The position numbers and the translations under genes are program-made. From Styela clava (Eukaryota): DNA of 64,000 nucleotides. This document shows, piece by piece, positions 10,744-40,476 of the stretch (its first letter is position 1; each line of letters opens with the position of its first letter). The notes beneath the pieces are model-generated. The model made no database searches, was not told the DNA's origin, and saw only the letters and a list, made by a program, of their open reading frames with translations. The stretch lies in assembly GCF_964204865.1 (NCBI RefSeq), contig NC_135260.1, forward strand, positions 11,098,001 to 11,162,000, in the 5' to 3' direction.

Positions 10744-11308
10744 GATTTAGCAGATTGAACCAAGCAGGGTTCAATATATATCAGTCTTATAAATACTAGA
10801 GAAGACTAAATTGAAAATAAATATAAATGGACTATTTGCAGAAAATTGTGGAAAAGTAAAAACATGAAAAATATTGCAAACACACGAGGCAAAATTGTAG
10901 CAGCAAAAAGTTTAGAGGGAGCAGCCAATTATTTCAGCGCAACAAAAAATATCTGAAGTTACGGTACTCCATTTACTCAAAGGACTAATTATAAAGGGAC
11001 AGTATCCAAAAATTCAACTTCATCCATGAAGCGCTTCTCAAAGCAACTTTCAATTTGGTATGATGCAAATACCATTTATCAATACGAAAAGCATCATTCC
11101 TTTGCTGTCAATACCATACATACTTTGCTTTCTGCATAAAATTCTCTCTTTATTTTTGAAAACCTTGGCTTAGTTGATCACATAAATTAGTGTTGTAACC
11201 TTCCTATCACAGTAAAAGTATTAAATGATTTGTATCAAGCATTATGTACTATAAAATTTTATGATCATCAGCACAGAATAAATGTCTTTAAGAGTTTTTT
11301 TCACTGTA

Positions 11309-12571
11309 TCAAGAGTCATTATTCTCCTGTTTTATCTCGTTTTCAATATGGTCAAGAAGATCTTCGTTTGGAACATCGGTGATATACATTCCTTCCTCTA
11401 AACATCTTACAACATTCTTTGGAATTCTTATGGGAAGAGAAAAGAAATCCCTACAGGATTGTCTGTCATAACAACGCTGAATGATAACTCTTTGATCAAG
11501 ATATGCCAGATAATAAACATTGTTACTTTTGTGTTGCCTACCGATATTCCGACAATATCGATTCCCCCTAATGCTATATTTTACTGTGTTTTCCTCTGCA
11601 TCGTATTCTATACTACCAATATGACCAGGAGTATCGTTCGTTTGAATAAGTGATTTAACATAATCATTGAGTTCTAGACAATCAAAATCGGAGTAAAAAC
11701 TATCATGTGTAAAAGATGGAACACGCCCACTGGAGATTGGAACATTAGGAGTTCGTTTTTTGATTTCAAAAGGTATAAGATAAATATCTGTATCATCAAC
11801 ATTGCATATAAGTGAAGCATAGAATATGGATTTATTGTTGCCACATTGAGATAATTCAGGCCCAAAAATTTTGTTCGACTGAGCCATTTCTTGTGATAGT
11901 GGAACATGGAGAGTGTCGAATTCAAATTTACAATGATCTGATCTCAGTAACAAAGCTTCTTTCCCTTTTTTGCAAGACTGAAACAATCGGAAGTGACGAT
12001 TTTTTGTATAGACCGCTTTGTCCACAATGAGTTTATCTTGCCCTCCTGAATGTATCGTTAGTCTGTGTCGAAATTCAGGATTTTCACACAATTCTTCAAC
12101 AAAATCGCCGACTTCAAAATTAGATCGGAATGCAATACCTGGTATTCTGAAGATCAAATGTTGACTAAATTTTTCACTTGTACTCGAATCTAATCGTAAT
12201 ACATTCCATTCTGAACATACAATTCCAAAATCAGACTCCAATTTGTTGCAAGAAAAACAGATCAGATCATCAACAATTTTATTAGCATCAACTTCAGTAT
12301 TACTTTCTTTTAAAAACTCGAGGTCAAAATAAAGATGGCACGGTTTGTTTTCACGTATTACTTCATAAAAATGTCGAGGCCAATTATTTTTCATCATTTT
12401 CTGATATTCCCACCAGAATTTTTCGTAAGTGCAAGCAATGAATTTTCTTCCTGAGCGATTGTTTTGAAGTGAAATAACAGGTTCGACTGCAAATATATGA
12501 ATGTTTGGATCGTCTCCAGCTTCGGTAAAAGCATCATCTTGTTTGTGGTGAATATTCCAAGGTTTTTCCAT
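11309..12571 (-). CDS. PRIMPOL: PrimPol paralogue 2 (AEP primase-polymerase), intronless, N-terminally shortened
   Basis: Motif I HLYFDLE, motif II KFSQHL, motif III VDKAVYTKNRHFRL and the UL52-type Zn finger RYC..RQHKSNN..QRC..C are all present. First ATG is at 12571; the ORF track starts at a GTG at 12580, and an in-frame TGA lies just upstream. Confidence 0.88.
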   Translation of the reverse strand: MEKPWNIHHKQDDAFTEAGDDPNIHIFAVEPVISLQNNRSGRKFIACTYEKFWWEYQKMMKNNWPRHFYEVIRENKPCHLYFDLEFLKESNTEVDANKIVDDLICFSCNKLESDFGIVCSEWNVLRLDSSTSEKFSQHLIFRIPGIAFRSNFEVGDFVEELCENPEFRHRLTIHSGGQDKLIVDKAVYTKNRHFRLFQSCKKGKEALLLRSDHCKFEFDTLHVPLSQEMAQSNKIFGPELSQCGNNKSIFYASLICNVDDTDIYLIPFEIKKRTPNVPISSGRVPSFTHDSFYSDFDCLELNDYVKSLIQTNDTPGHIGSIEYDAEENTVKYSIRGNRYCRNIGRQHKSNNVYYLAYLDQRVIIQRCYDRQSCRDFFSLPIRIPKNVVRCLEEGMYITDVPNEDLLDHIENEIKQENNDS

Positions 12572-12936
12572 AAGGATCACACAAATAAATCAGTTTAAAT
12601 CTCAATAAAATGAATCCATATAAGCATTATCACAATTACATTCAATCTATAGCATAAATGGAAAAACTAAAAATGTTTAAAAGAAGAAATAGAACAAACA
12701 AACACTTTTATAATGCACCCAAAACACTTGAACATTAAAAGAGTTGGTTATAGCCAATTTCAGAATTATAAAGCACTTCCTCTCAGCCAGGGATAAGTTG
12801 AGGTAAGTTAGAAATACAGTTAAGGCCCAAAGCATTGCATGTAGGAAATATGTGAAACAGATTTTAAAAATTAGTTGGCCTTCTAAAAAAGTTATAAACA
12901 TTAGTATAGTACAAGAAAGAACGTGACTTGAGCAGA

Positions 12937-14427
12937 TTATGTTTTGTTCTCTATTGCGTTCAATAAATCATCATCGGTAACATTTCCCCAATCATCCTCA
13001 TTTTCACTTTCTGAAATTTTACAATAATTTTCACTCTTATTATTATCACTAGTATCTTTTTCAAGTAAGTTAACATAATCTAGCAATTCTTCATCAGTTA
13101 CATCAAGACCAATATCAACAATATTGTTTGAAACTTCTTTAGGAAAAGGTATCGGAGAAGATTGGTATCCTTGTGATCTACAAACAGGATCAAGGCATTT
13201 CTGGTAACAAACTTTAGAATTTAGATCAGCAACATAATAAATATGATTGCTTTTGTGTTGCCGATTAATATTATTACAAAATCGATTTCCAGAAATATTG
13301 TATATTATAGTATTACTACAAGGAAAGAAGGTCCACTTGTTAACACAGCCTTTTGTATCATTTGAATTTACAATAGAATTTATGAAATCTTTCAACGAAG
13401 GAAATGGAGATTCAAAGCTATCAGTATGAGGAACATTATCGCTAGAAAGTATCGTGTTTAATTCATTTTCTTTTTTTATTCTTGGAGGCATGTCTACTGA
13501 AAGAATTTTAATATTTGAATGGAATTTTACGTTCGACACTAGGGAAGCATAGAACACAAGTTCATTGATGTCCTTTTCTGTCGATTTGTATCGTTTCACT
13601 GGAGGAATATTTTCCTTTTCTTGAGCATGGTGCCTACAACAAGCAGCTCTTACGTTTCCAAAAGACAAATCGAAATTACAAGTTTCTGATTTCTTTAGGG
13701 CAGTAGATTTACCCTTTTTTGTAGACTGAAACAAACGGAAATTTCTATTTCTTGTATATACGCTTTGATCAATAAATGACACAGCTTCACCGTTTGATGT
13801 TAGTACTGTAAATTTATTTCCACTGTTATTGCATATGTTTTGGACAAAACCCCCAACTTCATAGTTGTTTCTAAAAACTGCATTCGGAATGTGAAAAATA
13901 AGATGACGACTAAATTTAACATCATTCGATGAATCAAGTTCAAGAACATGTTTTCTATCACACTTTATTTTGAAATCTTCAAATAACTGTTGGCAAACAG
14001 AATTGATGACTTCGTCAACTAAATCTCCACCATTTATAGATTGATTAAAATTTTTATGATATTCCAAATCAAAGTACAGATGGCATGCGGCATTTTCTTC
14101 AATTACTTCATAAAAATGTTTGTCGCTGTTTTTCATTCTTGAATAATAGAACCAGAATTCTTCGTAACTTGACACAATGAATTCTCTTTTTCCTGATGAT
14201 ACATTGTCAGATTTTGGTTCAACTGCAAAAACCCTCAATTCTTCAGACTTAGCGTGAGCATGACGAAAAGCCTCCTTCAATCGAAAATATTTCGACCATG
14301 TGGGTGGAGGACATGGCAAGTCAGACAACCTCGGCGCATAAAACTTGTGAATGGGGTTCTCTGTGTATTTTTCAGCCAAACGTTCAACTCTTCTTTGAAA
14401 TCTCAAAAACTTTTTCTCGCACGCCAT
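12937..14427 (-). CDS. PRIMPOL: PrimPol paralogue 1, full length, 496 aa, intronless
   Basis: N-terminal helix plus YAPRLS, EFWFYY, HFYEVI, HLYFDLE, KFSRHL, FIDQSVYTRNRNFRL, Zn finger RFC..RQHKSNH..YQKCLDPVC, and an acidic C-tail with two RPA-binding-like motifs. Confidence 0.95.
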   Translation of the reverse strand: MACEKKFLRFQRRVERLAEKYTENPIHKFYAPRLSDLPCPPPTWSKYFRLKEAFRHAHAKSEELRVFAVEPKSDNVSSGKREFIVSSYEEFWFYYSRMKNSDKHFYEVIEENAACHLYFDLEYHKNFNQSINGGDLVDEVINSVCQQLFEDFKIKCDRKHVLELDSSNDVKFSRHLIFHIPNAVFRNNYEVGGFVQNICNNSGNKFTVLTSNGEAVSFIDQSVYTRNRNFRLFQSTKKGKSTALKKSETCNFDLSFGNVRAACCRHHAQEKENIPPVKRYKSTEKDINELVFYASLVSNVKFHSNIKILSVDMPPRIKKENELNTILSSDNVPHTDSFESPFPSLKDFINSIVNSNDTKGCVNKWTFFPCSNTIIYNISGNRFCNNINRQHKSNHIYYVADLNSKVCYQKCLDPVCRSQGYQSSPIPFPKEVSNNIVDIGLDVTDEELLDYVNLLEKDTSDNNKSENYCKISESENEDDWGNVTDDDLLNAIENKT

Positions 14428-14606
14428 CTTAATAACAATTAGTTTACAAAAACGAAATAAATTTAACCATTGAATTTTCTGAAATTAATTCAAAAAATAT
14501 TTTCCGTGTTTTTAAATTACCGTTTCTCAAATACAACCAACTTCATGGAACATTACCTTCAATTTTCATGAAGAAAATAAATAACAGGATTCCTATCTCA
14601 CATATG

Positions 14607-15665
14607 CTATCTCTTAACAAACTTGAACCGTGACAAGATATCTTGATATGGCGTTTTTGAATAATTTACTGGCATTGGCATACGCATCAATTTTTTAAAT
14701 TTGGGGGATTGCATTACCAAAGCTTGTGTGACACCAAAACCACTGGAAATAAACCAATAAAACACCACACCTGATGGCATGTAGATGGCTACTGGTATCA
14801 TAACCACAGAAATGCCCCGCAAAAAATTTATCAAATACTTGGATATACCTTCTAAAGGTGTTTTACCATCACCCCTATGTATTTCAATAGTCGCAAGGTT
14901 GGCAAATGCCATTAAAACAGGCAAGACAAAATATGGATCCGCAAGACATAAGTTATTGAACCATAAAACGCCTTCTTGACTTAATTCAGTATATGTTTGT
15001 ACTTGTGTAGCTGATACACTTGTAGTAAATGGTAAAGATAGAGTCATATTTCTGAGTGAAGCAGTCATAGCAAACCATATTGGAAGTTGTACCCAAGGTA
15101 CTAAATTTCTTCTCAAAGTACCAGGAACTTTATGCTTCTGATACAATTCCTTTTTCCTTTTATGGAAGCTGTTAAAAACATGCATGTCTCGAGTTTTTTT
15201 GTCCCATCTATGTTCTTTACCAGCTTCAACCGCCTCTTCATTCAATTGTTTTATAATTTGTTGCAAAACTGGAGCCAGTAGTTTATGTTTCAAATTTTTC
15301 TGCATTTGCCATATAAACAAAGGGGCTGTGATTGTCAGTCTCAATGACAGAGTACAAATAACAATAGAGACCCACCAAGGAAGACCAGTTAAGTCATGTA
15401 CTGTAGTCAAGTATGATTCCGCCATCTTGACTAAACCACTGTCAACAAAGGAACTATAGATAGATTCCCATGTAGTGGGTTCATAATACTTCCCATAATC
15501 AGCAGCATAATCCAATGTCTCTGGTGGGTTTGATTGTGAAGATGAGACAAATTGAGTTGTGTGGTATCCAGATCTATTTGATTGCCAAAACCGTCTGTAA
15601 TGAATTACATGGTGTGGGTTTGAAGCGATTCTTTTAACTGCAACATTAATTAACAAATGCTTCAT
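14607..15665 (-). CDS. COX18: Cytochrome c oxidase assembly protein COX18 (Oxa1/YidC family), intronless CDS
   Basis: Basic mitochondrial-targeting-like N-terminus; HDLTGLPWWVSIV, WVQLPIWFAMTASLRNM, GVLWFNNLCLADPYFVLP, YWFISS. It lacks the long C-terminal ribosome-binding tail of OXA1L. Confidence 0.88.
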   Translation of the reverse strand: MKHLLINVAVKRIASNPHHVIHYRRFWQSNRSGYHTTQFVSSSQSNPPETLDYAADYGKYYEPTTWESIYSSFVDSGLVKMAESYLTTVHDLTGLPWWVSIVICTLSLRLTITAPLFIWQMQKNLKHKLLAPVLQQIIKQLNEEAVEAGKEHRWDKKTRDMHVFNSFHKRKKELYQKHKVPGTLRRNLVPWVQLPIWFAMTASLRNMTLSLPFTTSVSATQVQTYTELSQEGVLWFNNLCLADPYFVLPVLMAFANLATIEIHRGDGKTPLEGISKYLINFLRGISVVMIPVAIYMPSGVVFYWFISSGFGVTQALVMQSPKFKKLMRMPMPVNYSKTPYQDILSRFKFVKR

Positions 15666-16874
15666 TCTATTATTACTAAATTACTATACTCAAAACATTA
15701 CACTAATTCCTGAAAAAAAAAATACAAAATACATATTTAAAGGCAGTGTGAAATAAACTTTTCCTAAATGCCCAATTATCTTACTTGTATTCTAGTTCAG
15801 CTTCGAAAGTTTCCAAGACTTATAGCAACCAACACAATTACCTTAACCCATTACAACGGTAATATCTGTATTCTGTACTCAGGAAATCAATGTTGCAGAA
15901 ATTCAGTCAAAAGTTAATTAAATGCCATTCCATAAATTCAAAAATCAATCAATAACTCAAGAACAAAAACTATGAATCCCAACAAAATAATTGTCTTAAT
16001 TTGGCAACAGAAATGTTTAATCATGGGTTTACCGTAATGAAAGAGCAGTTCTGAAAGAAAAATATTTAGCTGCACTGCTTTTATTTATAAGCTATCTTTA
16101 TGCATCCACAATTATATGGCATATCAATTTTGCAATGATTGGATCTTATTTTCATAACACCTCTTTAACCCCTTCAAATGAAAAGACATTTTGAATTCAC
16201 ATTTACATTCTGTACATACATGTATTTCCAGTATGATGAAAAAACGAACTACCAATTATTAACTCAATGATATACCTCATGATGAATGTCTATTGAAAAT
16301 ACAGGACTTTCAGCAAAATTTGACTCATAAGTTTATATTCACTGCAGTCATAGGCCAAGTGCATGTTTAGGCTTTAAAAACGTAAGTCAATGTGCTTTAA
16401 TAATAATTGATTTGATTCAAAATAGCCAGAAGAAATACTTTTGTAATAGAATTTGTAAGAAAGTTATAGATATGATCTGCAGCACTAAAATCTGTGGCAT
16501 AAATTGAATTGTGTTTATATTATGCAGTAGTAAGTAGTCCACAGTCTTGTTGTCATGCCCACCACAATATTTCCTGTTTCTTATTTGGTCCACAAACACA
16601 AACATCAGTGAAAAAGGAAAATTGACAAGATTTCATTGCATTGCATGATTCTAAAACAGAACATTAGATGTAGTTCAAAGTATTCACCCACTCAGTTTAT
16701 CTAGTTAGCACAAAATGTTTGACAAGTATTAGAGCTGTAACAATTTCAAAATTTGTTTCTGAGATGTAAGAATGGATAAAAGTATATAAATCGGCTGATA
16801 CTTTCCAATTTATTAAGCTTGTACACTTTTATCAATTTATCACAACAATTTTATTTTTCATTCAATTCCATACA

Positions 16875-18137
16875 TCAAGGGCATTTTCTCTCTACACTAG
16901 ATTTTCCAGCTTCTTCGTATTCTTGTTTTGAAATCCACATTTGCTGAAATGTTCCTAAAGAAGCTAAAATAGATCCACCGATCCAAGGTGAAAACTTACG
17001 TTCAATAGAATTTGTAGGAGCAATAATTTTTAATTTGGCACTTGGTGGTGTTTTGTTTGACAACTCAGCTGTGAGCCTGTCAGTAAAACCTTGAACTAAA
17101 GTATTACCACCAGTTACAATTACACTACTGTAAAGTCCAAGTCGAATATCGACATCACATAATCCTACTGAAGATGATACAACGTGAGGAACGCCAAGCA
17201 TAGAATTTCCTTGGATAAGTGATGGATCAAAAAGAGCTTCTGCAGCTTTCATACGCTCATGGCCAAAGTCTTGATGATATCCATTTGGGAAGCCATAGTG
17301 ACATTGAGGCATTCCCATAGCATCTTGCTCAATGTAAGGTGTGTCTAGGAGTTGTAAAACTGATGCAGCAAAGTCCTCAAGAGTGTAATTCATCATGTAC
17401 TTCTTCCATGATTCTGTAACTTCTGGAAGATCTTTTTTCTTTTCCCAATCTGGTTGACCTCCTTCTTTGGCTTCTTTTTTTGAAGCGATCATGTATGCAG
17501 GGATTACATCAATGTTTAAATTTTTCATTACTTCTCTACATTGCATAAGGATGAAATCGCCACCGAGCGGAGATTTTACGATTCCTTGTTTGAGAACATA
17601 TCCATCGTGTACTGGTACAGCAGTTGTGTGGGTAGAACCGCTATCCAAAACAACCCCAGTTGATCGCCCATTAGCAAATGCTGACAAAACAGGGGATTTG
17701 CAAAGAAAAAAGGCAGGTACATTATATTTCTCAAACATTACTTCCGTTAGTTTTTCTCGCTTGTTTCTTGCATTCCAAGCTGGTTCGGAAAATAACACAG
17801 GATGTAAGTTAGATTCGCTATGCAAGCCACGTTTGTAAGTATAGTCCAACATAGATTCAAATAAATCCCAATCTTCTATCATTCCATCGAGAACGGGTGT
17901 GACAATTTCAGTATCTTTCCTTGGAGTCAACAAAGCACTTGTACCAAAATGCAACTTCTTTGTTGGCTTGGATTCTTCTCCTTCAACTTCCATTTCTTCT
18001 ATTGCTTGGGATCCAACATGAGTAGGAAACACTGATTTGGGACAATCTTCTCCTGCATACCCAGCACGGACAGAATGTGATCCAATATCAATGACCAATG
18101 CACCGACTTCATCTCCACCATATATACCCCCACTCAT
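16875..18137 (-). CDS. ACTL6A: Actin-like protein 6 (BAF53/Arp4), likely pro-orthologue of ACTL6A/B, intronless
   Basis: [20 protein letters not shown]...AFANGRSTG...KSPLGGDF...[31 protein letters not shown] are diagnostic for ACTL6. Confidence 0.96.
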
Positions 18138-19359
18138 GGTTTCTATTTATTGAACTATTAACTTACTTAAAAATTAAAATATTCAATGAAACAAATGATA
18201 ATATGATTATGAGTTTAAAAAGAGATAAGAGAAGAGATTTCTATAGGGAGAAAATACAACAATGTATTCAGCTATATCGGATTTTGAAAATTTCCTTTAC
18301 CTTCCATAAACTGAAATTCATGAATCCATGACTGAAGGTATCTTGACCTAATGCCACAAATGAAAATATTTGAATTGGTAAAAAAAATGAATGCTAAACC
18401 ACTAAAGTTACGGATATGCGAAATATATGTGAATACTCCAAAACACAATTGTTAAAAATAAACTCTTTTCTTCTGTTTAATTGCAAAACTTGTTATCACT
18501 AAACATCCAAAATGAAGCTTTCAAGAGAGTACGCAGGGTGAAAAAGGCAATTTGGTATGGACAGAAAACGCTGGTTCTATAAATAAAATCGATTTGAAGC
18601 TGTTTAATTAGTAATCATGGGAACATGATACGAGTAACTCAGAGCTGAAACACGTAGTGTGTGTGGGGTTCTTATGATAGCAATACCTTCTTTCAACGGG
18701 TTGTGTAATCTCTTATGATGGCAATACTTTGCATTATCCGTCTAATACAATAAAAAATAATTGCACTCTTGCATTTTGATGGCTGTTGTACAGTAACAAT
18801 ATGGTCAACGAATAATAATGTCATAAACTAGCTCCGAATTCGTGACCTCCTTAAATGTAAATTTGAATTTCTTGGGCAACAGTTTTATCTATATGAATGG
18901 TTGTTTATCATTTTGGTGAAAATTACACAAAAACCCTTAATAGTTAAGACTAATGATACAGTGATAATAGGATTAAAATAGCACCTACAGGCTTTGCATG
19001 CCCTAATAAAACTAAATCCATTAGAATTGAGTAAAGGTATTGAAAGTCTGTGCAATTTCCAACACTCAACATAAACAGTTTTCAAAATCCAAACTTGGGA
19101 GACCTCTGAATTTTTTGACCAGTTCATGTAGGTATGAGATCTTCTTTTATAACTCTGGAAACATAGTTTTGCAAAATATCAGCAGTATTTTAGATGTAAC
19201 TGCACGACATGTTATCACAATATCGAAGGGGGAGTTTTTACTGTACAATATGGACATATTTGGGATTGCACAATAATATTCGATTAATTCGAGATTCAAT
19301 TCAATAAAAATATTTGATTCGACTCAGCAAAATATTCGATTTTGGGGAGCCCTAATAAA

Positions 19360-19810
19360 GGGTCTGGTATAGTTTAGTACCACATGTACTTCTAGTTGAC
19401 CTGGCTTAACAATTTTTGCATATGTCAATCCTAACCCCACCTGACTACGTCACCGAAAAATTACGTCATTTCGACGTCACAGTGGCGTAATAAGGCCCAC
19501 CGAAGTATGCGGATGCTTGTCCAAAACGCAGACAATCACCCGAAATCGAGCAAGCAATTTCTCTCGTTTTCTCGTCACAACGATCACTATAGGAGAGAGA
19601 TCGCCGACTTCAGCAAGTTCGTTATCGGCAGCGCAGATGTCATTTCGAGCGATCGTAATTCTACTTTGGCAATCTCTATGACGTGATGGTGACGTCGTAG
19701 TGACGTAATTTTTGGATGGCATAGTCAGGTGGTGGTTAGGAATAAAATATGCAAAATTCGTTATGCTACGCCCACCGGAAGTACTTGTGGTACTAAACTA
19801 TACTAGACCC
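19360..19810. mobile_element. GG-terminal MITE with about 120-bp TIRs, family B
   Basis: GGGTCTGGTATAGTTTAGTACCAC... / ...GTGGTACTAAACTATACTAGACCC; perfect 8-bp TSD CTAATAAA. Confidence 0.9.
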
Positions 19811-21460
19811 CTAATAAATACACATTTTCAAAACTCTCATTGCATCATTGAATTCTGGAATTCGGGTTCTTCATAATATAATTACAGTTATAATACACAA
19901 GCTGACAAGTGTCTGAGTTTCTTTTTAATCCCTTTTTACTGCGAAAATTTTTAAAGATAGATTGTTGCTAATTCCGTGATTATTAAAAAATTAAATTTTT
20001 TCACATAACCAGCTAAAATTTCTATAAATATTTTCAAGCAATCAAATACAGAAATACATTTAGACTACTAAAAGGATTTACAGAAAGATTATAGAAAATA
20101 ATAAAACTTGAAATTCATGGCATTGAAATTTCTTTTTCAGATATAACTTACCGTTCAGCCGTTATTGTCTCATTGTGCCATCTCATATTGATGTGCTGTC
20201 ATTGGACGTTAAATCTCAAACATTATATCAATTCTCATGAACTCCGGACTTTTAGAAGCTTCCTTAAAAACTCTGGTGTTCAATATTGTATTCACCAACT
20301 ATCCATTTTGATTTAAAGCTCGGCATTTGGCAATGATTAAGTCGTCCAGTCATCTTATCGGCTTCCCTTTCCCCCGGGATAAACATGAACACGTTAGATA
20401 TCATCACGCTTTGGATATCATATCCCAAAGCCGAACAACATGTAACATCGCATAAAATAGGCATAAGCAGCTCCCGCCACTAAATTGTCACATGCCAGAT
20501 TCAAAAATGATTAATTAGCGATAAAAAATGCTTCACAAACATTACCGATAAAACACAATAGAATATTTATTGTAATACAGTTTTTGTAACTTTTTAAATT
20601 AATTTGCAATTGTAATATTCAACTAATATAAAGTAATTTTTATTTATATTGCCATTTGTTATGCGTACGATGAGAAGTTGGCAACTGAAAGATGAGATAG
20701 GCTATATTTGCGCCACGAAATGAAATTTAAATATCCGGCTCTTATGAGAGCTGCTGATTAAAAAAAGTATGTCATTCACATAATGATGAATTACTTGTTT
20801 TTCATTAAATTTAAAACTTGTTGCAAGTTTTTTGAAAATAAGCAAGATATATAGAGACATGTTTTTGAACATTTTCGATAATAGAGGAAACTCGTGAAAC
20901 GACGAATCAATGCTTATATTGGAAGTGCCATGTCGGACAAATGTTCGCGTGTTCTGAGGTAAAATGAATAAAACACAGGAAAAAGAAATAGATGATGAAT
21001 TTCATTTGGCGAATAAGCAAAAACAATTGCAAATACCCAAATATGTTTTTGTAAAGGGGAAAAGGTAAATAAAAAATGGGTTTCTGGGTAGGTATCAATA
21101 ATACCCTCTTCATTGACGCTATTTTTATCTTCATAGATGGTATTTCGTGAGACTGCTTTCACTCTTCTTGTGGATAAATATAAAATCCTCTCTAATATAC
21201 GCAACTCTCAGCACATGTGGCCATGCTATCCGACAGAAGATAGTAGTTGCCAGATATATGCATTATGAGTTTCCGACATACAAAGTTTTGTCGCCAAATT
21301 TTATCCGTTTAAAATAAAATCTTTTGTTGAATATTATTTTATTTATCATATTACTATAAATTCTAATATATTCAAACAATTACATGTAGTATATGAAATC
21401 ATCTCTACACAACTATAGTAGTTTTCTTGGTACAATCTGACAACTGCCAAGCCATTTCAG

Positions 21461-21486
21461 CCTTTTTACTTCACGGTCTCGTCTAG
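21461..21486 (+). promoter_or_regulatory. Probable non-coding first exon of RACK1 with a TOP/TCT-like pyrimidine start
   Basis: CCTTTTTACTTCAC... is followed by donor AG|gtaggt at 21487. The matching acceptor ttttcag ends at 22407, 19 nt before the ATG. Confidence 0.6.
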
Positions 21487-21804
21487 GTAGGTCGTGTTTT
21501 ATTTGCAATATTGTTTTTATTGGTTTCTTTTTGAAATTAGCCATTTGTATTTATATGTAATTAGCACTTTTGTTGAAAAGAATTATTGAAGGTTCAGTAA
21601 GTTTTTGTTATGATGCTGAAAAATGTTCCGTTTGGGCAGACTTTGACCCATATTGCAAGATAAATTTCAGGTGCCACAGATTTTAACATTGAGAAATCTA
21701 AGGCTTAAGTTATTCAGTATATCTGGTTGATCTCCAGTCTGCTAGTGGGCAAAATACTTACTTTTTGAACTCTGGATAATGAATGTTTCGTGTTATTAGA
21801 AAAG

Positions 21805-22115
21805 GATTTACATATTTATCCCGGGGGAGAGAAAAGTCGATAAGACAGCTTAACCATATGGTGAACCACGGCCTCTCGTCCGGTTATCATTCCATGTTGA
21901 ATATGGGATTAGTTAGTTCTTTAGAAGCATGGACTTGATGGTTGAGAAAGCCGTAATCAACCAGCGGTTACGTGAACCATTCTACGGCGGTGAGGAGTCT
22001 AGCAATTTTCTCGAACATAACTATCCTTGTATGGGATTCGGACATGCGAACCTACGCAGAGGTGCAGTGGCGAGCGTATTCCTAACGCTTAGCAGGATAA
22101 TCCCCCCGCCACGCT
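21805..22115 (-). mobile_element. tRNA-derived SINE family 1, inside the RACK1 5' UTR intron
   Basis: Pol III-like head (B-box-like GTCCGAATCCC). Body and tail are shared with 34350-34630, and fragments occur at about 20345-20390, 38000-38055 and 5380-5480. Confidence 0.7.
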
Positions 22116-22426
22116 CTGATATATGGTCAAATTAAATGATTTTGAGCTTTAAATAATTTAAAGTATTTTGTTTATGTGTGAAATTTTGGTATTGTGGAAA
22201 ACTGTTATGTATATATAAAAACAGTTAAGCCCAACCACAGAACCAAGTCTGATTAAACATAAATATCTTTCATTGAGGCAGTTATTGCTTTGGCTCACAG
22301 GCTAGTTGTAATTTGACATAGTACTTGTTTAAGTTTATATTATGAAAGCGAAATATACACAACACACAGTGAATCACAGTAACTCACTTTAATTCTTTAT
22401 TTTTCAGGTGCATACACTAAGCAGTC

Positions 22427-23386
22427 ATGGAGCAGATGACATTACGTGGTACCCTTAAGGGTCACAATGGATGGGTGACTCAAATCGCAACTACTCCGGC
22501 TTATCCAGACATGGTTTTATCATCATCTCGGGATAGAAGTATTATATTATGGAAATTAACAAGAGAGGAGGGAAGATATGGTGTACCACAGAGAAGAATG
22601 ACTGGTCATTCCCACTTTGTTTCTGATATCGTTATCTCATCAGATGGCCAATTCGCTCTTTCTGGATCTTGGGACGGCGAGTTAAGATTGTGGGATCTCA
22701 CTTTGGGAGTTAGCACTCGTCGCTTTTGTGGACATACTAAAGATGTCCTATCTGTTGCATTTTCCACTGATAACAGGCAAATTGTATCTGCCTCTCGGGA
22801 TCGCACAATTAAGTTGTGGAATACACTTGGTGTGTGCAAATACACCATAATGGATGATGGACATTCTGATTGGGTCTCCTGCGTCAGATTCTCACCAAAT
22901 TCAGGCAACCCCGTTATCGTGTCATGTGGATGGGATAAGATGGTTAAAGTTTGGAATTTAACTAATTGCAAACTGAAGACCAACCATTATGGCCACACTG
23001 CATTCTGCAATGGCGTTACCGTTTCACCTGATGGATCTCTCTGTGCTTCTGGTGGAAAAGATGGACAAGCTATGCTCTGGGATCTCAACGAAGGAAAACA
23101 TCTTTATACTCTAAATGGCGATGGTGAAATTCATGCAATGGCTTTCTCACCAAACCGATATTGGCTTGCTGCAGCATGTGGACCTTGCGTCAAAATCTGG
23201 GATTTGGAAGGAAAGGTTATCGTTGACGAGCTGAAACCAGAGCTTATCAACATGCCAAACAGCAAAGCTGATCCACCAGAATGTCTTTCACTCGCTTGGT
23301 CCTCCGATGGTCAAACCCTTTTTGCTGGTTATGCCGATAACTTGATAAGAGTTTGGCAAGTATCTGTACCAGCACATATTAGTTAG
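22427..23386 (+). CDS. RACK1: Receptor for activated C kinase 1 (40S-associated WD40 protein), intronless CDS
   Basis: [23 protein letters not shown]...GHSHFVSD...[14 protein letters not shown]...FSPNRYWL; seven WD repeats. ATTAAA at 23473. Confidence 0.98.
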
Positions 23387-33496: not shown

Positions 33497-34344
33497 GTTA
33501 TTAGTTTTTTTAACAGTAGGACAAGCAGCAATGTAAGGAACAGCTTGCCTGCATTCATCTGCGGAGAAGCTGGCACACTTACAGTTAAGTAAACAAGCGG
33601 TTGAGGAGACAAATAGAATTCAGCTAAAGTAGTCAAAGAAACAGCAACCGACAGATAAAAGAGAAAAATGAGCTCGGCAAACAACAATGGAAGGAATAGC
33701 AGGTCTAAGCATGAAGGTAGTTAGTCATAGAGAAGACAGCAGCATATAGAAAGGAAGACACGAGCTCGGCAGGCAGCAATGGAAGAATTTCCAGATATGA
33801 AGTTCGGATCCTGCAGAACCGAGTTCGGCAGGAAGCAATCGAAGTACGTTTAGTTATAAAGGTTCGGAGGCCGCTCGATATAAATGCGCAAGGATACATG
33901 TCAAGGGGAAAAGAAGGAAATTACCAATCCTTGACGGCGTTGCCGATACTGGTTCTAATTTTTGTTATTCACCGATTGTTTAAGTTGTATTAGTTACATT
34001 CGTACGTACCGAATTGTAGCAGTGAAAGCCCCTTGTTTTTAGTGTAAATATCGTGAGTTACTTTGGGGAAAGAAAGTCAGAACCTTGCGGATTGAGGCAA
34101 GATACCACAGTTGTGGGTGGTGCATCTTCTGATAAGGTGAACTGACGAGGCGGCCAGTCGGACAAAAGGAACTGTCGTCCGGTTGATACTTCATATCCGG
34201 CGGAAGCGGCCGAGAGACCGATGTGTGAAATTCAGGCTGAATTTTTCAGCTGAAGTAGTTAGAGAAGCGGGAACGGGTTAGGATAAGAGCCAGTAGCAGA
34301 TAGGAAGGGCCAAGTCATATTTGCACGATGTAATAGAATGAACA
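33497..34344 (+). mobile_element. GC-richer LTR-like or unclassified transposon segment
   Basis: Composition shift, an internal ~60-bp diverged duplication (33637 vs 33731) and TATAAAT at about 33879. No TSD was found, so the boundaries are approximate. Confidence 0.3.
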
Positions 34345-35945: not shown

Positions 35946-36877
35946 TTAGTTTTCACCATTCGCTGCAGGTTGTTTTGAACAGAAGGGAAAGACGGAACTT
36001 TTCCAATCCGGAAAGTAATAAATTACGGATAGAATATTTATAACATTTCTAGCTAGTACCACCACAAGTGTGGATCCGTATTGTGACTTGAAGAAAGATC
36101 CCATGACCATCAACGCAATACTGCCGCCAGTCCACATGCAAGCCGCCACGCCCTAATCAACACAGGCTTCAAATTATCAGCTGCCTCGCCAACAGTTGAT
36201 TGATGCTTATATAGAGGTGCTAGGAACAAGTAGAAGTAGAGCAACACGAATTGTTCGAATATTGAAGCTATACTTGTTCCGATAAACAACATGTCAAGGC
36301 TGAATCGAGATCCAACGATTCCACAACCGCGCGGAGTCATTCCGAAACGATAAGCTACAATGTAAAGGAAGATTACTGTGTTAGGATGTAAAATGGCTAA
36401 CAAGAACACTGAAATGCTTATAACCTGTGTAGTCTTTGTTGTCAAATGTTCCATCAATTTGTTTCCATATAAAACCCTCTGACGCAAAGATAGGACGAGG
36501 AAACAGCACATCAACACCAACCCATCAAATATAGATCTGCCTGAGATAGTCAAAAAGCAGTAACTCGGACAATATTCTTCGACAATTAATTTTTCAACGA
36601 GTGCTAACAACATCACGAATGTATAAGCAGCTGCCATAAAATCACGAAATATTCTCATCCAAAATCCGAGTCCGTTTGTCCAAGATCTTTTTGTCTTAAT
36701 CTTTCAAGCATGAATGTCCCAGAAAGATATGATGTTACAATAGCGAATATAGTAAAACTGTCCACAGACGCTAACCATAATGACTGTATTTTCATTTTCT
36801 TCGTCGCCACCGGGCATTGTTTGAGAAAAGTTATATGAAAAATAAAGCCAAGTAGAATTCTCGAATATTTGTGACAT
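35946..36877 (-). pseudogene. Frameshifted copy of the orphan 7TM gene
   Basis: Closely similar to 38940-39881 but broken across several ORF fragments: +4 nt near 36785, -10 nt near 36670, -4 nt near 36150, and a TGA at 36704-36706. Confidence 0.85.
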
Positions 36878-38939: not shown

Positions 38940-39881
38940 TTAGTTTCCTCCGTTCGCTGCAGGTTGTTTTGAACAGAATGGAAAGAGAGAACTTTTCCAA
39001 TCCGGAAAGGAATAAATTACGGATAGAATATTTACAAAGCTTCTAGCTAGTAGCACCACAAGTATGGATCCGTATTTTGACTTGAAGTAAGCTCCCATGA
39101 CCATCAACACAATACTGCCCCCAGTCCATATGCAAGTCGCCACGAACGCCCTATGCAGAACAGGCTTCAGATTATTAGCTGCCTCGCCAACAGTTGATCG
39201 ATGCTTATATAGAGGAGCTAGGAACAAATAGAGCAACACGAATTGTTCGAATATTGAAGTTATACTTGCTCCGATAAACAACTTGTCAACTCTAAATCGA
39301 GCCCCAACGATTCCACAGCCACGCGGAGTCATTCCGAAACGATTCCCAACAAAGTTAAGGATGACTACCGTGCTAGGAAGCAAAATGGCTAACAAAAATA
39401 CTGAAATGCTTAATACCTGTGTAGTCTTTGTTGTCAAATGTTCCATCAATTTGTTTCTATATAAAACTCTCTGACGCAAAGATAGGACGAGAAAACAGCA
39501 CATAACCGCCATCCCACCAAATATATTTCTGCCTGAAATAGTCAAAAAGCAGTAACTCGGATAATATTCTTCGACAATTAATTTTTCAACGAGTGCTAAC
39601 AACATCAAGAATAAATAGCCAGCTACCATAAAATCACGAAATATTTTCATCCAAAATCCGAGTATCGCCGAGTCCGTTTGTCCAAGATCTTTTTGTCTTA
39701 ATCTTTCAAACATGAATGTCGCAGAAAGATATAATGTCACAATAGCGAATATAGTAAAACTGACCACAGACGCTAACCAAAATATATTTTCATTTTCTTC
39801 ATCGCCACCGGATATTGTTTGAGAAACGTTGGAGTCATATGAAAAATATTGCCAAGTAGAATTCTCGAATGTTTGTGCCAT
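38940..39881 (-). CDS. Orphan intronless seven-transmembrane (GPCR-like) protein, about 313 aa
   Basis: Seven hydrophobic segments; N-terminal sequons NST and NVS; Cys at the top of TM3 plus GC in ECL2; LRQRVLY in place of DRY; FLAPLYKH ending TM5; C-terminal FPDWKSSLFPF. The first ATG is at 39881 (the ORF track starts at a TTG). Confidence 0.8.
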   Translation of the reverse strand: MAQTFENSTWQYFSYDSNVSQTISGGDEENENIFWLASVVSFTIFAIVTLYLSATFMFERLRQKDLGQTDSAILGFWMKIFRDFMVAGYLFLMLLALVEKLIVEEYYPSYCFLTISGRNIFGGMAVMCCFLVLSLRQRVLYRNKLMEHLTTKTTQVLSISVFLLAILLPSTVVILNFVGNRFGMTPRGCGIVGARFRVDKLFIGASITSIFEQFVLLYLFLAPLYKHRSTVGEAANNLKPVLHRAFVATCIWTGGSIVLMVMGAYFKSKYGSILVVLLARSFVNILSVIYSFPDWKSSLFPFCSKQPAANGGN

Positions 39882-40476
39882 TTCACTTCTACCAGAACTC
39901 ACTGTTACGGTCCAGTTCAAATCACTTGTGGACTAACTAATTTATTTTGATGAAGTATATTCCTCAAGACTAATGATTGACGATTAACTCCGATGCAAAT
40001 GGAATGGGACATTAGCAAAGATCACAGTAATCATTCTGAAAACTCTATAATTATGGATATTTTGGTCCATAATGTTTGTGCCATTTCACTTCTACCAGAA
40101 CTCACTGTTAGGGTTCAGTTCAAATCACTTGTGGACTAACTAATTTATTTTGATAAAGTATAATCCTCAAAACTGATGATTGGCGATTAACTCCGATGCA
40201 AATGGAATGGGACATTAGCAAAGATCACAGTAATCATTCTGAAAACTCTATAATTATGGATATTTTGGTCCATAATGTTTGTGCCATTTCACTTCTACCA
40301 GAACTCACTGTTAGGGTTCAGTTCAAATCACTTGTGGACTAACTAATTTATTTTGATAAAGTATAATCCTCAAAACTGATGATTGGCGATTAACTCCGAT
40401 GCAAATGGAATGGGACATTAGCAAAGATCACAGTAATCATTCTGAAAACTCTATAATTATGGATATTTCGGTCCAT
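39868..40476. repeat. Three tandem 203-bp repeats spanning the 7TM start codon and upstream region
   Basis: aatgtttgtgccatttcacttctaccagaac recurs at 39868, 40071 and 40274. Only one copy is present in the other duplication unit. Confidence 0.95.

What the first reader, a model, noticed from the sequence alone, without database searches (positions are those of the whole stretch)
12340..12571. PrimPol-2 lacks the N-helix and carries a natural Y89-to-acidic substitution
Seen: copy 2 starts at MEKPW, about 40 aa downstream of the copy 1 start, with an in-frame stop just upstream. Its WFYY motif reads WWEY (copy 1 WFYY). The RQ motif is KQ in copy 2 and RL in copy 1. Known: the human N-helix contacts the template, and human Y89D lowers processivity. 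Inference: copy 2 is a low-processivity or primer-only variant, and the two copies split the RQ motif in complementary ways.
Basis: partly seen in the sequence, partly recalled or inferred. Interest (0 to 1): 0.7.

Follow-up and report, generated by a model that had tools for sequence, protein, structure and literature searches.

The report
Shortened second PrimPol in sea squirt
A sea squirt carries a second, adjacent copy of the DNA-restart enzyme PrimPol that has lost its first 40 or so amino acids but kept its catalytic parts; it is probably a working, faster-evolving duplicate, and the odd-looking amino acids that drew attention also occur in other species' ordinary PrimPols.

Summary
In this Styela clava-type window, PrimPol copy 2 (11309-12571, minus, 420 aa) has 4 residues before the W42 equivalent (copy 1: 43). 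An in-frame TGA lies 7 codons upstream and no AG acceptor follows it before codon 12, so a hidden exon is nearly excluded. Glu55 aligns to human Y89; KQ and RL are as described.

The functional motif is WxxY, which copy 2 keeps. Position 89 is Tyr in 48 of 188 homologues and acidic in 9, including a tardigrade PrimPol. KQ occurs in 50 of 188, including Ciona and Clavelina, and Gln48 contacts DNA through its backbone, so the 'complementary split' fails. All catalytic and Zn-finger residues are intact; listed SNPs lean synonymous (9 of 15).

What is unusual is the complete loss of the N-helix plus its conserved linker, and Glu where 14 of 15 tunicate-clade relatives keep Tyr. Most likely a working, fast-evolving tandem paralogue that primes normally and extends primers somewhat worse (0.55). 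'Primer-only' is unshown. New variant of a known kind; modest interest.

The parts
11309..12571 (-). PrimPol copy 2 CDS, one uninterrupted frame, 420 aa (P0001); RefSeq allele XP_039272767.1
   Evidence: Foldseek ranks 1-10 are human PrimPol
12590..12592 (-). in-frame TGA seven codons upstream of the ATG; the last upstream AG ends at 12601, ahead of this stop
12539..12544 (-). motif Ia as K10-Q11 (human R47-Q48)
12404..12415 (-). WxxY motif as W53-W54-E55-Y56 (human W87-F88-Y89-Y90); Glu55 at 12407-12409
12317..12325 (-). motif I DxE (D83, E85 = human D114, E116)
12158..12172 (-). motif II K134-x-S136-x-H138 (human K165, S167, H169)
11960..12022 (-). motif III D184 and the nucleotide-binding stretch R192, H193, R195, K201, K204 (human D280, R288, N289, R291, K297, K300)
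11453..11554 (-). C-H-C-C zinc finger (C340, H347, C367, C373); one extra residue between the last two cysteines
11342..11377 (-). single acidic helix aligned to the first C-terminal acidic motif of primate PrimPol (RPA-binding motif; that label is recalled); copy 1 has two such
11149..11154 (-). AATAAA after copy 2; none found after copy 1 or after the Oxa1/COX18-family gene
12779..12781 (-). contig branch with a 9-letter loose end in run X2, beside AG dinucleotides: possible spliced-leader or other 5' junction, about 208 nt upstream of the ATG (weak hint)
   Evidence: tables 7 and 8
12937..14427 (-). PrimPol copy 1 CDS, 496 aa (P0002), same cluster as XP_039272762.1; 40% identical to copy 2
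14299..14427 (-). copy 1 residues 1-43: predicted N-helix (2-23) and P-x3-Y/F-x-PRL-x-PPP linker, the part that copy 2 lacks
14278..14283 (-). copy 1 motif Ia as R49-L50
14143..14154 (-). copy 1 WFYY
14607..15665 (-). upstream neighbour, Oxa1/COX18 family (PF02096), same strand, 179 nt before the copy 1 ATG

Best explanation
Copy 2 is a tandem duplicate of the tunicate PrimPol gene that lost the coding sequence for the N-helix and linker and has since changed about twice as fast as copy 1, while keeping the whole active site and zinc finger. It most likely still does what PrimPol does: binds single-stranded template at stalled forks, starts a short DNA primer with the help of the zinc finger, and hands it on. 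Without the N-helix it has lost one light contact to the primer-template duplex, and Glu at 89 probably loosens the W42/F86/Y89 pocket a little (Trp at 88 may fill in), so extension of a ready-made primer is probably weaker than in copy 1 while priming is largely spared. Shown: deletion, residue identities, paralogy, intact motifs. Inferred from polymorphism: purifying selection. Inferred from human mutants only: the kinetic effect.
For: Intact D83/E85, K134/S136/H138, D184, R192/R195/K201/K204, R42 (R76), W53/Y56, Y69 (Y100) and C-H-C-C. AF2 model pLDDT 72.6; Foldseek best hits human PrimPol, E about 1e-23, rmsd 2.7-3.0 A. Copy 2, copy 1 and P0004 form a clade at 99/95 inside a tunicate clade at 100/99 and share a deletion of about 25 residues before motif III (21-23 residues against 42-51 in the 12 other tunicate-clade rows). 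Branch 1.45 against 0.69 to copy 1. Of 15 SNP rows listed inside the copy 2 CDS, 9 are synonymous: pN/pS 0.17-0.24, binomial p 0.0007-0.006. Window against RefSeq allele: 7 of 420 residues differ in copy 2, 15 of 496 in copy 1 (Fisher p 0.2). In human structures Lys10 is the only N-helix residue on the DNA backbone and the helix is disordered in one of two molecules (PMC8241999). Y89D keeps dNTP priming in both human studies.
Against: No enzyme assay exists for either copy. The two human Y89D studies disagree on severity (PMC4231748: 4 to 1 nt, lower DNA and dNTP binding, less helix; PMC8373064: mild). The SNP table showed only 40 of 228 rows and I did not choose which. The RefSeq allele has Pro for Leu80 three residues before the catalytic Asp83, a column that is Leu in 174 of 189 rows (Pro also in Aphelenchoides P0122). 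No orthologue of copy 2 was found in another species, so long-term conservation is untested. Five upstream ATGs lie between 12779 and the start. No listed run is on record as RNA. In a quick tree with long-branched outgroups copy 2 fell outside the tunicate clade, with a long-branch warning.
Confidence: 0.55

Rival explanations
1. Kinetically ordinary PrimPol. The N-helix loss and Glu89 are neutral or compensated; the duplicate is kept for dosage or for a different tissue or stage.
For: Position 89 switches between Gly and Glu among metagenome PrimPols that are 98% identical (L064/L067 against L050/L060/L061). WHDY occurs in Ramazzottius and Plectus PrimPols. The Lys10 column is Lys in 0 of 15 tunicate-clade rows (N-terminal alignment is loose). 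Nematode PrimPols of five genera have only 10-12 residues before the W42 column. Y89R has 1.4-fold higher catalytic efficiency on DNA (PMC5587808).
Against: The linker columns P, Y, L, P are kept in 23-26 of 26 other rows of alignment A3, so their loss is unlikely to be without effect; Tyr89 is kept in 14 of 15 tunicate-clade rows.
Confidence: 0.2
2. Specialised paralogue (the strong form of the first reader's idea): a primer-only enzyme, or one with another compartment, partner or template, with work divided between the two copies.
For: Both changes point the same way in human data; the zinc finger needed for priming is intact; rate about doubled with constraint kept; the lost segment is basic (9 K/R in 40 residues) and could carry a targeting or partner signal; position 89 tunes RNA-templated priming in human PrimPol (PMC5587808).
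Against: RQ variants are not complementary. No polymerase-specific residue is lost. One active site does both reactions. No orthologue shows the pattern preserved.
Confidence: 0.13
3. Decaying duplicate: transcribed or not, it is losing function and the changes are damage.
For: Long branch; 12 departures at 73 otherwise conserved columns; L80P in the RefSeq allele; upstream ATGs.
Against: At 40% identity to copy 1 the frame is still whole and every catalytic and Zn ligand is kept; 4 of the 12 departures are the deleted linker, and Ciona PrimPol departs at 12 of 74; SNPs lean synonymous.
Confidence: 0.08
4. A hidden upstream exon, or splicing from copy 1, supplies the N-helix.
For: A TCCTTA stretch just before the ATG resembles a minor-spliceosome branch site (consensus recalled); run X2 shows a junction-like loose end at 12781.
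Against: No AG between the in-frame TGA and codon 12. The nearest minor-type donor on the minus strand is at 33890, 21 kb and several genes away. Contigs of all four runs laid cross the ATG region without a joint, and the only joint listed is a 31-nt skip at 16764 with TG..GC ends. The loose end lies upstream of in-frame stops. The RefSeq model has the same start. No N-helix remnant upstream (a weak test).
Confidence: 0.03

Closest known systems
Human PrimPol (PRIMPOL/CCDC111; PDB 5L2X, 7JK1), eukaryotic AEP primase-polymerase with UL52-type zinc finger
   Same: Motifs Ia, Ib, WxxY, I, II, III, steric-gate Tyr and C-H-C-C finger all present; 34% identity and TM 0.80-0.88 (by target length) over the catalytic core.
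   Different: No N-helix or linker; K for R47, W for F88, E for Y89, H for N289 (His in 41 of 183 rows); region 201-260 almost absent (also in copy 1); one acidic C-terminal motif instead of two.
Human PrimPol Y89D variant (PMC4231748, PMC8373064; passages read)
   Same: Acidic residue at the same column.
   Different: Glu, not Asp; neighbour is Trp, not Phe; present in both known S. clava alleles of an evolved background; the human effect itself is disputed.
Nematode PrimPols with short N-termini (Panagrellus, Panagrolaimus, Acrobeloides, Ditylenchus, Aphelenchoides)
   Same: Too few residues ahead of W42 (10-12) for the human helix-plus-linker arrangement; KQ in several; Ditylenchus destructor has two divergent copies among the hits (P0062, P0099).
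   Different: They keep a short stretch that may be a helix remnant and an aromatic residue at 89; independent origin.
Plant PrimPol (WxRY; Arabidopsis AtPrimPol, PMC8523556; abstract start and passages read)
   Same: Non-aromatic residue at 89 in an enzyme shown to prime and extend.
   Different: Basic rather than acidic at 89; long, different N-terminal extension.
Trypanosome PrimPol-like PPL1/PPL2 (recalled, not looked up)
   Same: Duplicated PrimPol-family genes with divided roles.
   Different: As recalled they act as polymerases without priming; copy 2 keeps the priming finger.

Membership tests
Eukaryotic PrimPol | AEP motifs I (DxE), II (SxH), III (hDh) | tested here: met
   D83-L-E85, S136-Q-H138, V-D184
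Eukaryotic PrimPol | C-terminal UL52-type C-H-C-C zinc finger | tested here: met
   PF03121 E 1.7e-06, above cut-off; C340, H347, C367, C373; last spacing 5, seen in 7 of 176 rows
Eukaryotic PrimPol | WxxY motif with W87 and Y90 | tested here: met
   W53-W-E-Y56; definition from PMC8373064
Eukaryotic PrimPol | Template-binding motifs Ia (RQ) and Ib (R76) | tested here: met
   KQ (50 of 188 homologues) and R42 (173 of 188)
Eukaryotic PrimPol | ModN/ModC fold | tested here: met
   AF2 model; Foldseek ranks 1-10 are human PrimPol chains
Eukaryotic PrimPol | Primase and polymerase activity | not testable with these tools
   needs purified protein
Chordate-type PrimPol (N-helix + Y-x-PRL linker, Tyr89) | N-helix and linker ahead of W42 | tested here: not met
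   4 residues before W5; stop upstream. Not family-defining: only 17 of 176 rows carry the human-like linker
Chordate-type PrimPol (N-helix + Y-x-PRL linker, Tyr89) | Aromatic residue at 89 | tested here: not met
   Glu55; Tyr in 14 of 15 other tunicate-clade rows and 5 of 5 vertebrates
Primer-only primase | Loss of primer extension with priming kept | not testable with these tools
   no sequence feature known to me separates the two activities in this direction
Ascidian spliced-leader operon, downstream gene | Spliced leader at an unpaired AG at the boundary with the upstream gene | tested here: inconclusive
   9-letter loose end at 12781 in one contig of one run; not found exactly in the window; unlike the Ciona leader printed in PMC7986045; no Styela leader found in print

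The most novel reading that the evidence does not exclude
A chordate keeps two PrimPols with divided labour: copy 1 the full priming-and-bypass enzyme, copy 2 a stripped, N-helix-less enzyme tuned by W88/E89 to lay down very short primers (or to work in another compartment or on another template), expressed from a trans-spliced COX18-PrimPol1-PrimPol2 operon. It would be a natural deletion showing what the conserved but crystal-disordered N-helix/linker does.
Probability: 0.13. Interest if true: 0.6.

Novelty: new variant of a known kind. Interest (0 to 1): 0.3.

Why it matters
The N-helix and its linker are conserved from tunicates to humans, yet the linker is invisible in crystals and I found no deletion or K10 mutant study. 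A naturally truncated paralogue under apparent purifying selection, beside a full-length sister gene, is a ready pair for asking whether that segment matters for extension, lesion loop-out, targeting or partner binding. It also adds to the evidence that an acidic residue at 89 is tolerated, which bears on the disputed human Y89D variant. It does not change how PrimPol is thought to work, and both genes are already in RefSeq.

Tried and rejected
Whole-genome look: no genome is held for this window, so further PrimPol copies elsewhere in the genome were not checked. Orthologues of copy 2: none in the 90% clusters at near length (148 hits, 120 listed), at shorter length (3 hits), among 1.84 billion 50% representatives (150 listed of 2670; an orthologue over 50% identical would hide in P0003's cluster) or in 80 metagenome loci (none held two copies or the neighbouring genes; L027/L029, encoding P0038, show one copy in 11.6 kb). 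Expression: no RNA holder listed; runs X1, X2, X9 are RNA by guess only and contig depth cannot rank genes, so X2's depth of 261 over copy 2 against 89-131 over copy 1 is not used as evidence. Minor-spliceosome intron: rejected. Remnant of the lost exon upstream: none (DNA score 24.5 against null 26.5; protein 18 against 20.9), but the positive control was itself weak (p 0.04), so the test has little power. N289H: common (41 of 183). Single C-terminal acidic motif: also in Ciona, Clavelina and P0006. Order of duplication and speciation: unresolved (copy 1 + P0004 91/84; AU p 0.049 for copy 2 + copy 1, 0.165 for copy 2 + P0004). Link between linker and Tyr89: Tyr in 14 of 17 linker-bearing rows against 33 of 159 others, but confounded by kinship and contradicted by nematodes, which lack the linker and keep an aromatic residue; left as a lead. 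Papers on tunicate PrimPol or duplicated animal PrimPol: none among the listed hits (both searches were loose and only 20 of 4,381 and 15 of 3,618 were listed). Styela operons or leader: nothing. Earlier notes of this scan: none. No complex prediction was run.

Full report
Setting. The window holds, on the minus strand, an actin-family gene (16875-18137), an Oxa1/COX18-family gene (14607-15665) and two PrimPol genes in tandem, each one uninterrupted frame. Copy 1 (12937-14427, 496 aa) and copy 2 (11309-12571, 420 aa) are 40% identical. Their closest named relatives are Styela clava XP_039272762.1 (97%) and XP_039272767.1 (98%), both annotated PrimPol-like. No whole genome was held.

Observation. 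Copy 2 has four residues before the Trp that matches human W42, copy 1 has 43. Glu55 aligns without gaps to human Y89 in phmmer against PDB chains and in three MAFFT alignments. The RefSeq allele differs at 7 of 420 residues and shares start, KQ and WWEY. AF2 predicts a helix at 2-23 and a low-confidence linker in copy 1, as in the human crystals, where residues 18-34 are disordered (PMC5088642, passages).

Hidden exon. The frame upstream of the ATG is closed by TGA at 12590-12592. The last AG before the start ends at 12601, ahead of that stop, and the next lies at codon 12, past motif Ia, so a standard acceptor cannot add a coding exon. A minor-spliceosome donor pattern has its nearest minus-strand match at 33890. 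Contigs from four runs cross the start without a joint; the one joint listed is elsewhere and has no intron ends (contigs drop rare forms). One X2 contig branches near 12779-12781 with nine foreign letters beside AG dinucleotides; they are not in the window exactly. This may be a spliced leader, as in Ciona operons whose upstream genes mostly lack AATAAA (PMC1488885, passages; here AATAAA follows only copy 2), but it is one contig from a run that is RNA only by guess, and it does not match the Ciona leader (PMC7986045, passages). Either way it lies upstream of in-frame stops.

How odd are the residues? 371 fetched proteins were cut to 194 at 60% identity; 5 without a detectable DxE were dropped, leaving copy 2 and 188 others. 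The set is the best-scoring part of three searches, not a census. W87 is kept in 161 of 188, Y90 in 146, R76 in 173. Position 89 is Tyr in 48, Arg in 47, Lys in 19 and acidic in 9; named acidic cases are Ramazzottius and Plectus (WHDY), Stenamoeba and Sorochytrium (WREY) and Trichogramma. Metagenome PrimPols 98% identical to each other differ by Gly or Glu at this site. This matches PMC8373064 (passages): the motif is WxxY; Y89D has 4.3-fold lower catalytic efficiency, unchanged priming processivity and wild-type fork rescue. Against this, PMC4231748 (passages) found Y89D and Y89S insert one nucleotide per binding instead of four, lose RNA priming and bind DNA less well; and within the tunicate clade Tyr is kept in 14 of 15 other rows. 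So Glu55 is a real departure for its lineage but well inside what the family tolerates. Y89R even raises RNA-templated priming (PMC5587808, passages). The supplementary alignment of PMC8373064 was not read and may show similar motifs.

The RQ 'split'. RQ is found in 64 of 188, KQ in 50, TQ in 28, xL in 8. Ciona and Clavelina have KQ; P0004, P0335 and Solemya have RL or KL. Arg47 uses its side chain on a phosphate, and R47A lowers activity (PMC8413282, passages; PMC10415149, passages), which Lys can plausibly cover; Gln48 uses its main-chain nitrogen (PMC8241999, passages), which Leu keeps. Neither copy has plainly lost a contact.

The N-terminal loss is the unusual part. Of 176 rows with a residue at the Q48 column the median has 58 residues before W42; 15 have 25 or fewer; 4 have 5 or fewer: copy 2, one that starts without Met, a hagfish isoform with a longer sibling, and an unnamed gene call. 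Nematodes of five genera have 10-12. The linker columns lost in copy 2 are kept in 23-26 of 26 other rows of A3, whereas Lys at the K10 column is in 5 of 5 vertebrates and 0 of 15 tunicate-clade rows. In human structures K10 is the only helix residue on the backbone and the helix is disordered in one molecule of two. I found no study deleting it.

Origin and constraint. With long-branched outgroups a quick tree put copy 2 near the base and warned of long-branch attraction. With 18 rows, leaving those out, copy 2 joins copy 1 and P0004 at 99/95; the three share a deletion before motif III. Copy 2's branch is 1.45 against 0.69 and 1.03. Whether the duplication predates the split from P0004's lineage is open. 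All catalytic, nucleotide-binding and Zn ligands are intact and the model matches human PrimPol best. Of the 40 SNP rows shown (228 in all), 15 fall in copy 2: 9 synonymous, 6 not, pN/pS about 0.2, p 0.0007-0.006 by transition bias assumed. No listed indel lies in the copy 2 frame, but 11 of 23 indel rows were not shown. One caution is Pro for Leu80 in the RefSeq allele. No orthologue of copy 2 was found elsewhere.

Verdict. A real, probably functional, fast-evolving PrimPol paralogue without N-helix and linker. Normal priming with somewhat weaker extension is the best guess (0.55), resting on human mutants; equal kinetics 0.2, true specialisation 0.13, decay 0.08, hidden exon 0.03. The Glu and the KQ/RL pair do not by themselves mark a special enzyme. 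Interest 0.3: a useful natural deletion, not a new system.

Noticed in passing
window 11149-15700: Oxa1/COX18-family gene, PrimPol 1 and PrimPol 2 lie head to tail on one strand with gaps of 179 and 365 nt; AATAAA follows only the last; an X9 contig bridges all three (no proof of one transcript). Possible ascidian operon.
   Followed up: partly
window 12572-12779: Five upstream ATGs with short frames (1-22 codons) lie between the possible 5' junction and the copy 2 start; they could damp translation.
   Followed up: no
window 12332-12334 (P0003 residue 80): The RefSeq allele of copy 2 has Pro for a conserved Leu three residues before the catalytic Asp; Aphelenchoides PrimPol has Pro there too.
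   Followed up: partly
window 12937: Runs X2, X9 and X10 carry a 21-nt insertion just after the copy 1 stop codon; the base change there (also in X1) keeps a stop.
   Followed up: no
window 11309-23386: Five conserved genes here (two PrimPols, Oxa1/COX18 family, an actin-related protein, a WD40 protein that looks like RACK1 by recall) are each one uninterrupted frame; several other tunicate-like PrimPols also come as single frames (L027, L029).
   Followed up: no
proteins P0012, P0020, P0030, P0035, P0067 and others: Many arthropod-like PrimPols read WxYD, with Asp at human Y90 (17 of 188 rows), the change reported to inactivate the human enzyme (PMC8373064). Alignment shift or real compensation, not examined.
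   Followed up: no
window 36110-36703 and 38940-39932: Two similar minus-strand frames for a multi-pass membrane protein with no clear Pfam family; the one at 36110 looks shorter or broken.
   Followed up: no
proteins P0051, P0062, P0082, P0094, P0122, P0364: Nematode PrimPols of five genera have only 10-12 residues before the W42 column: an independent, clade-wide loss of the linker.
   Followed up: partly
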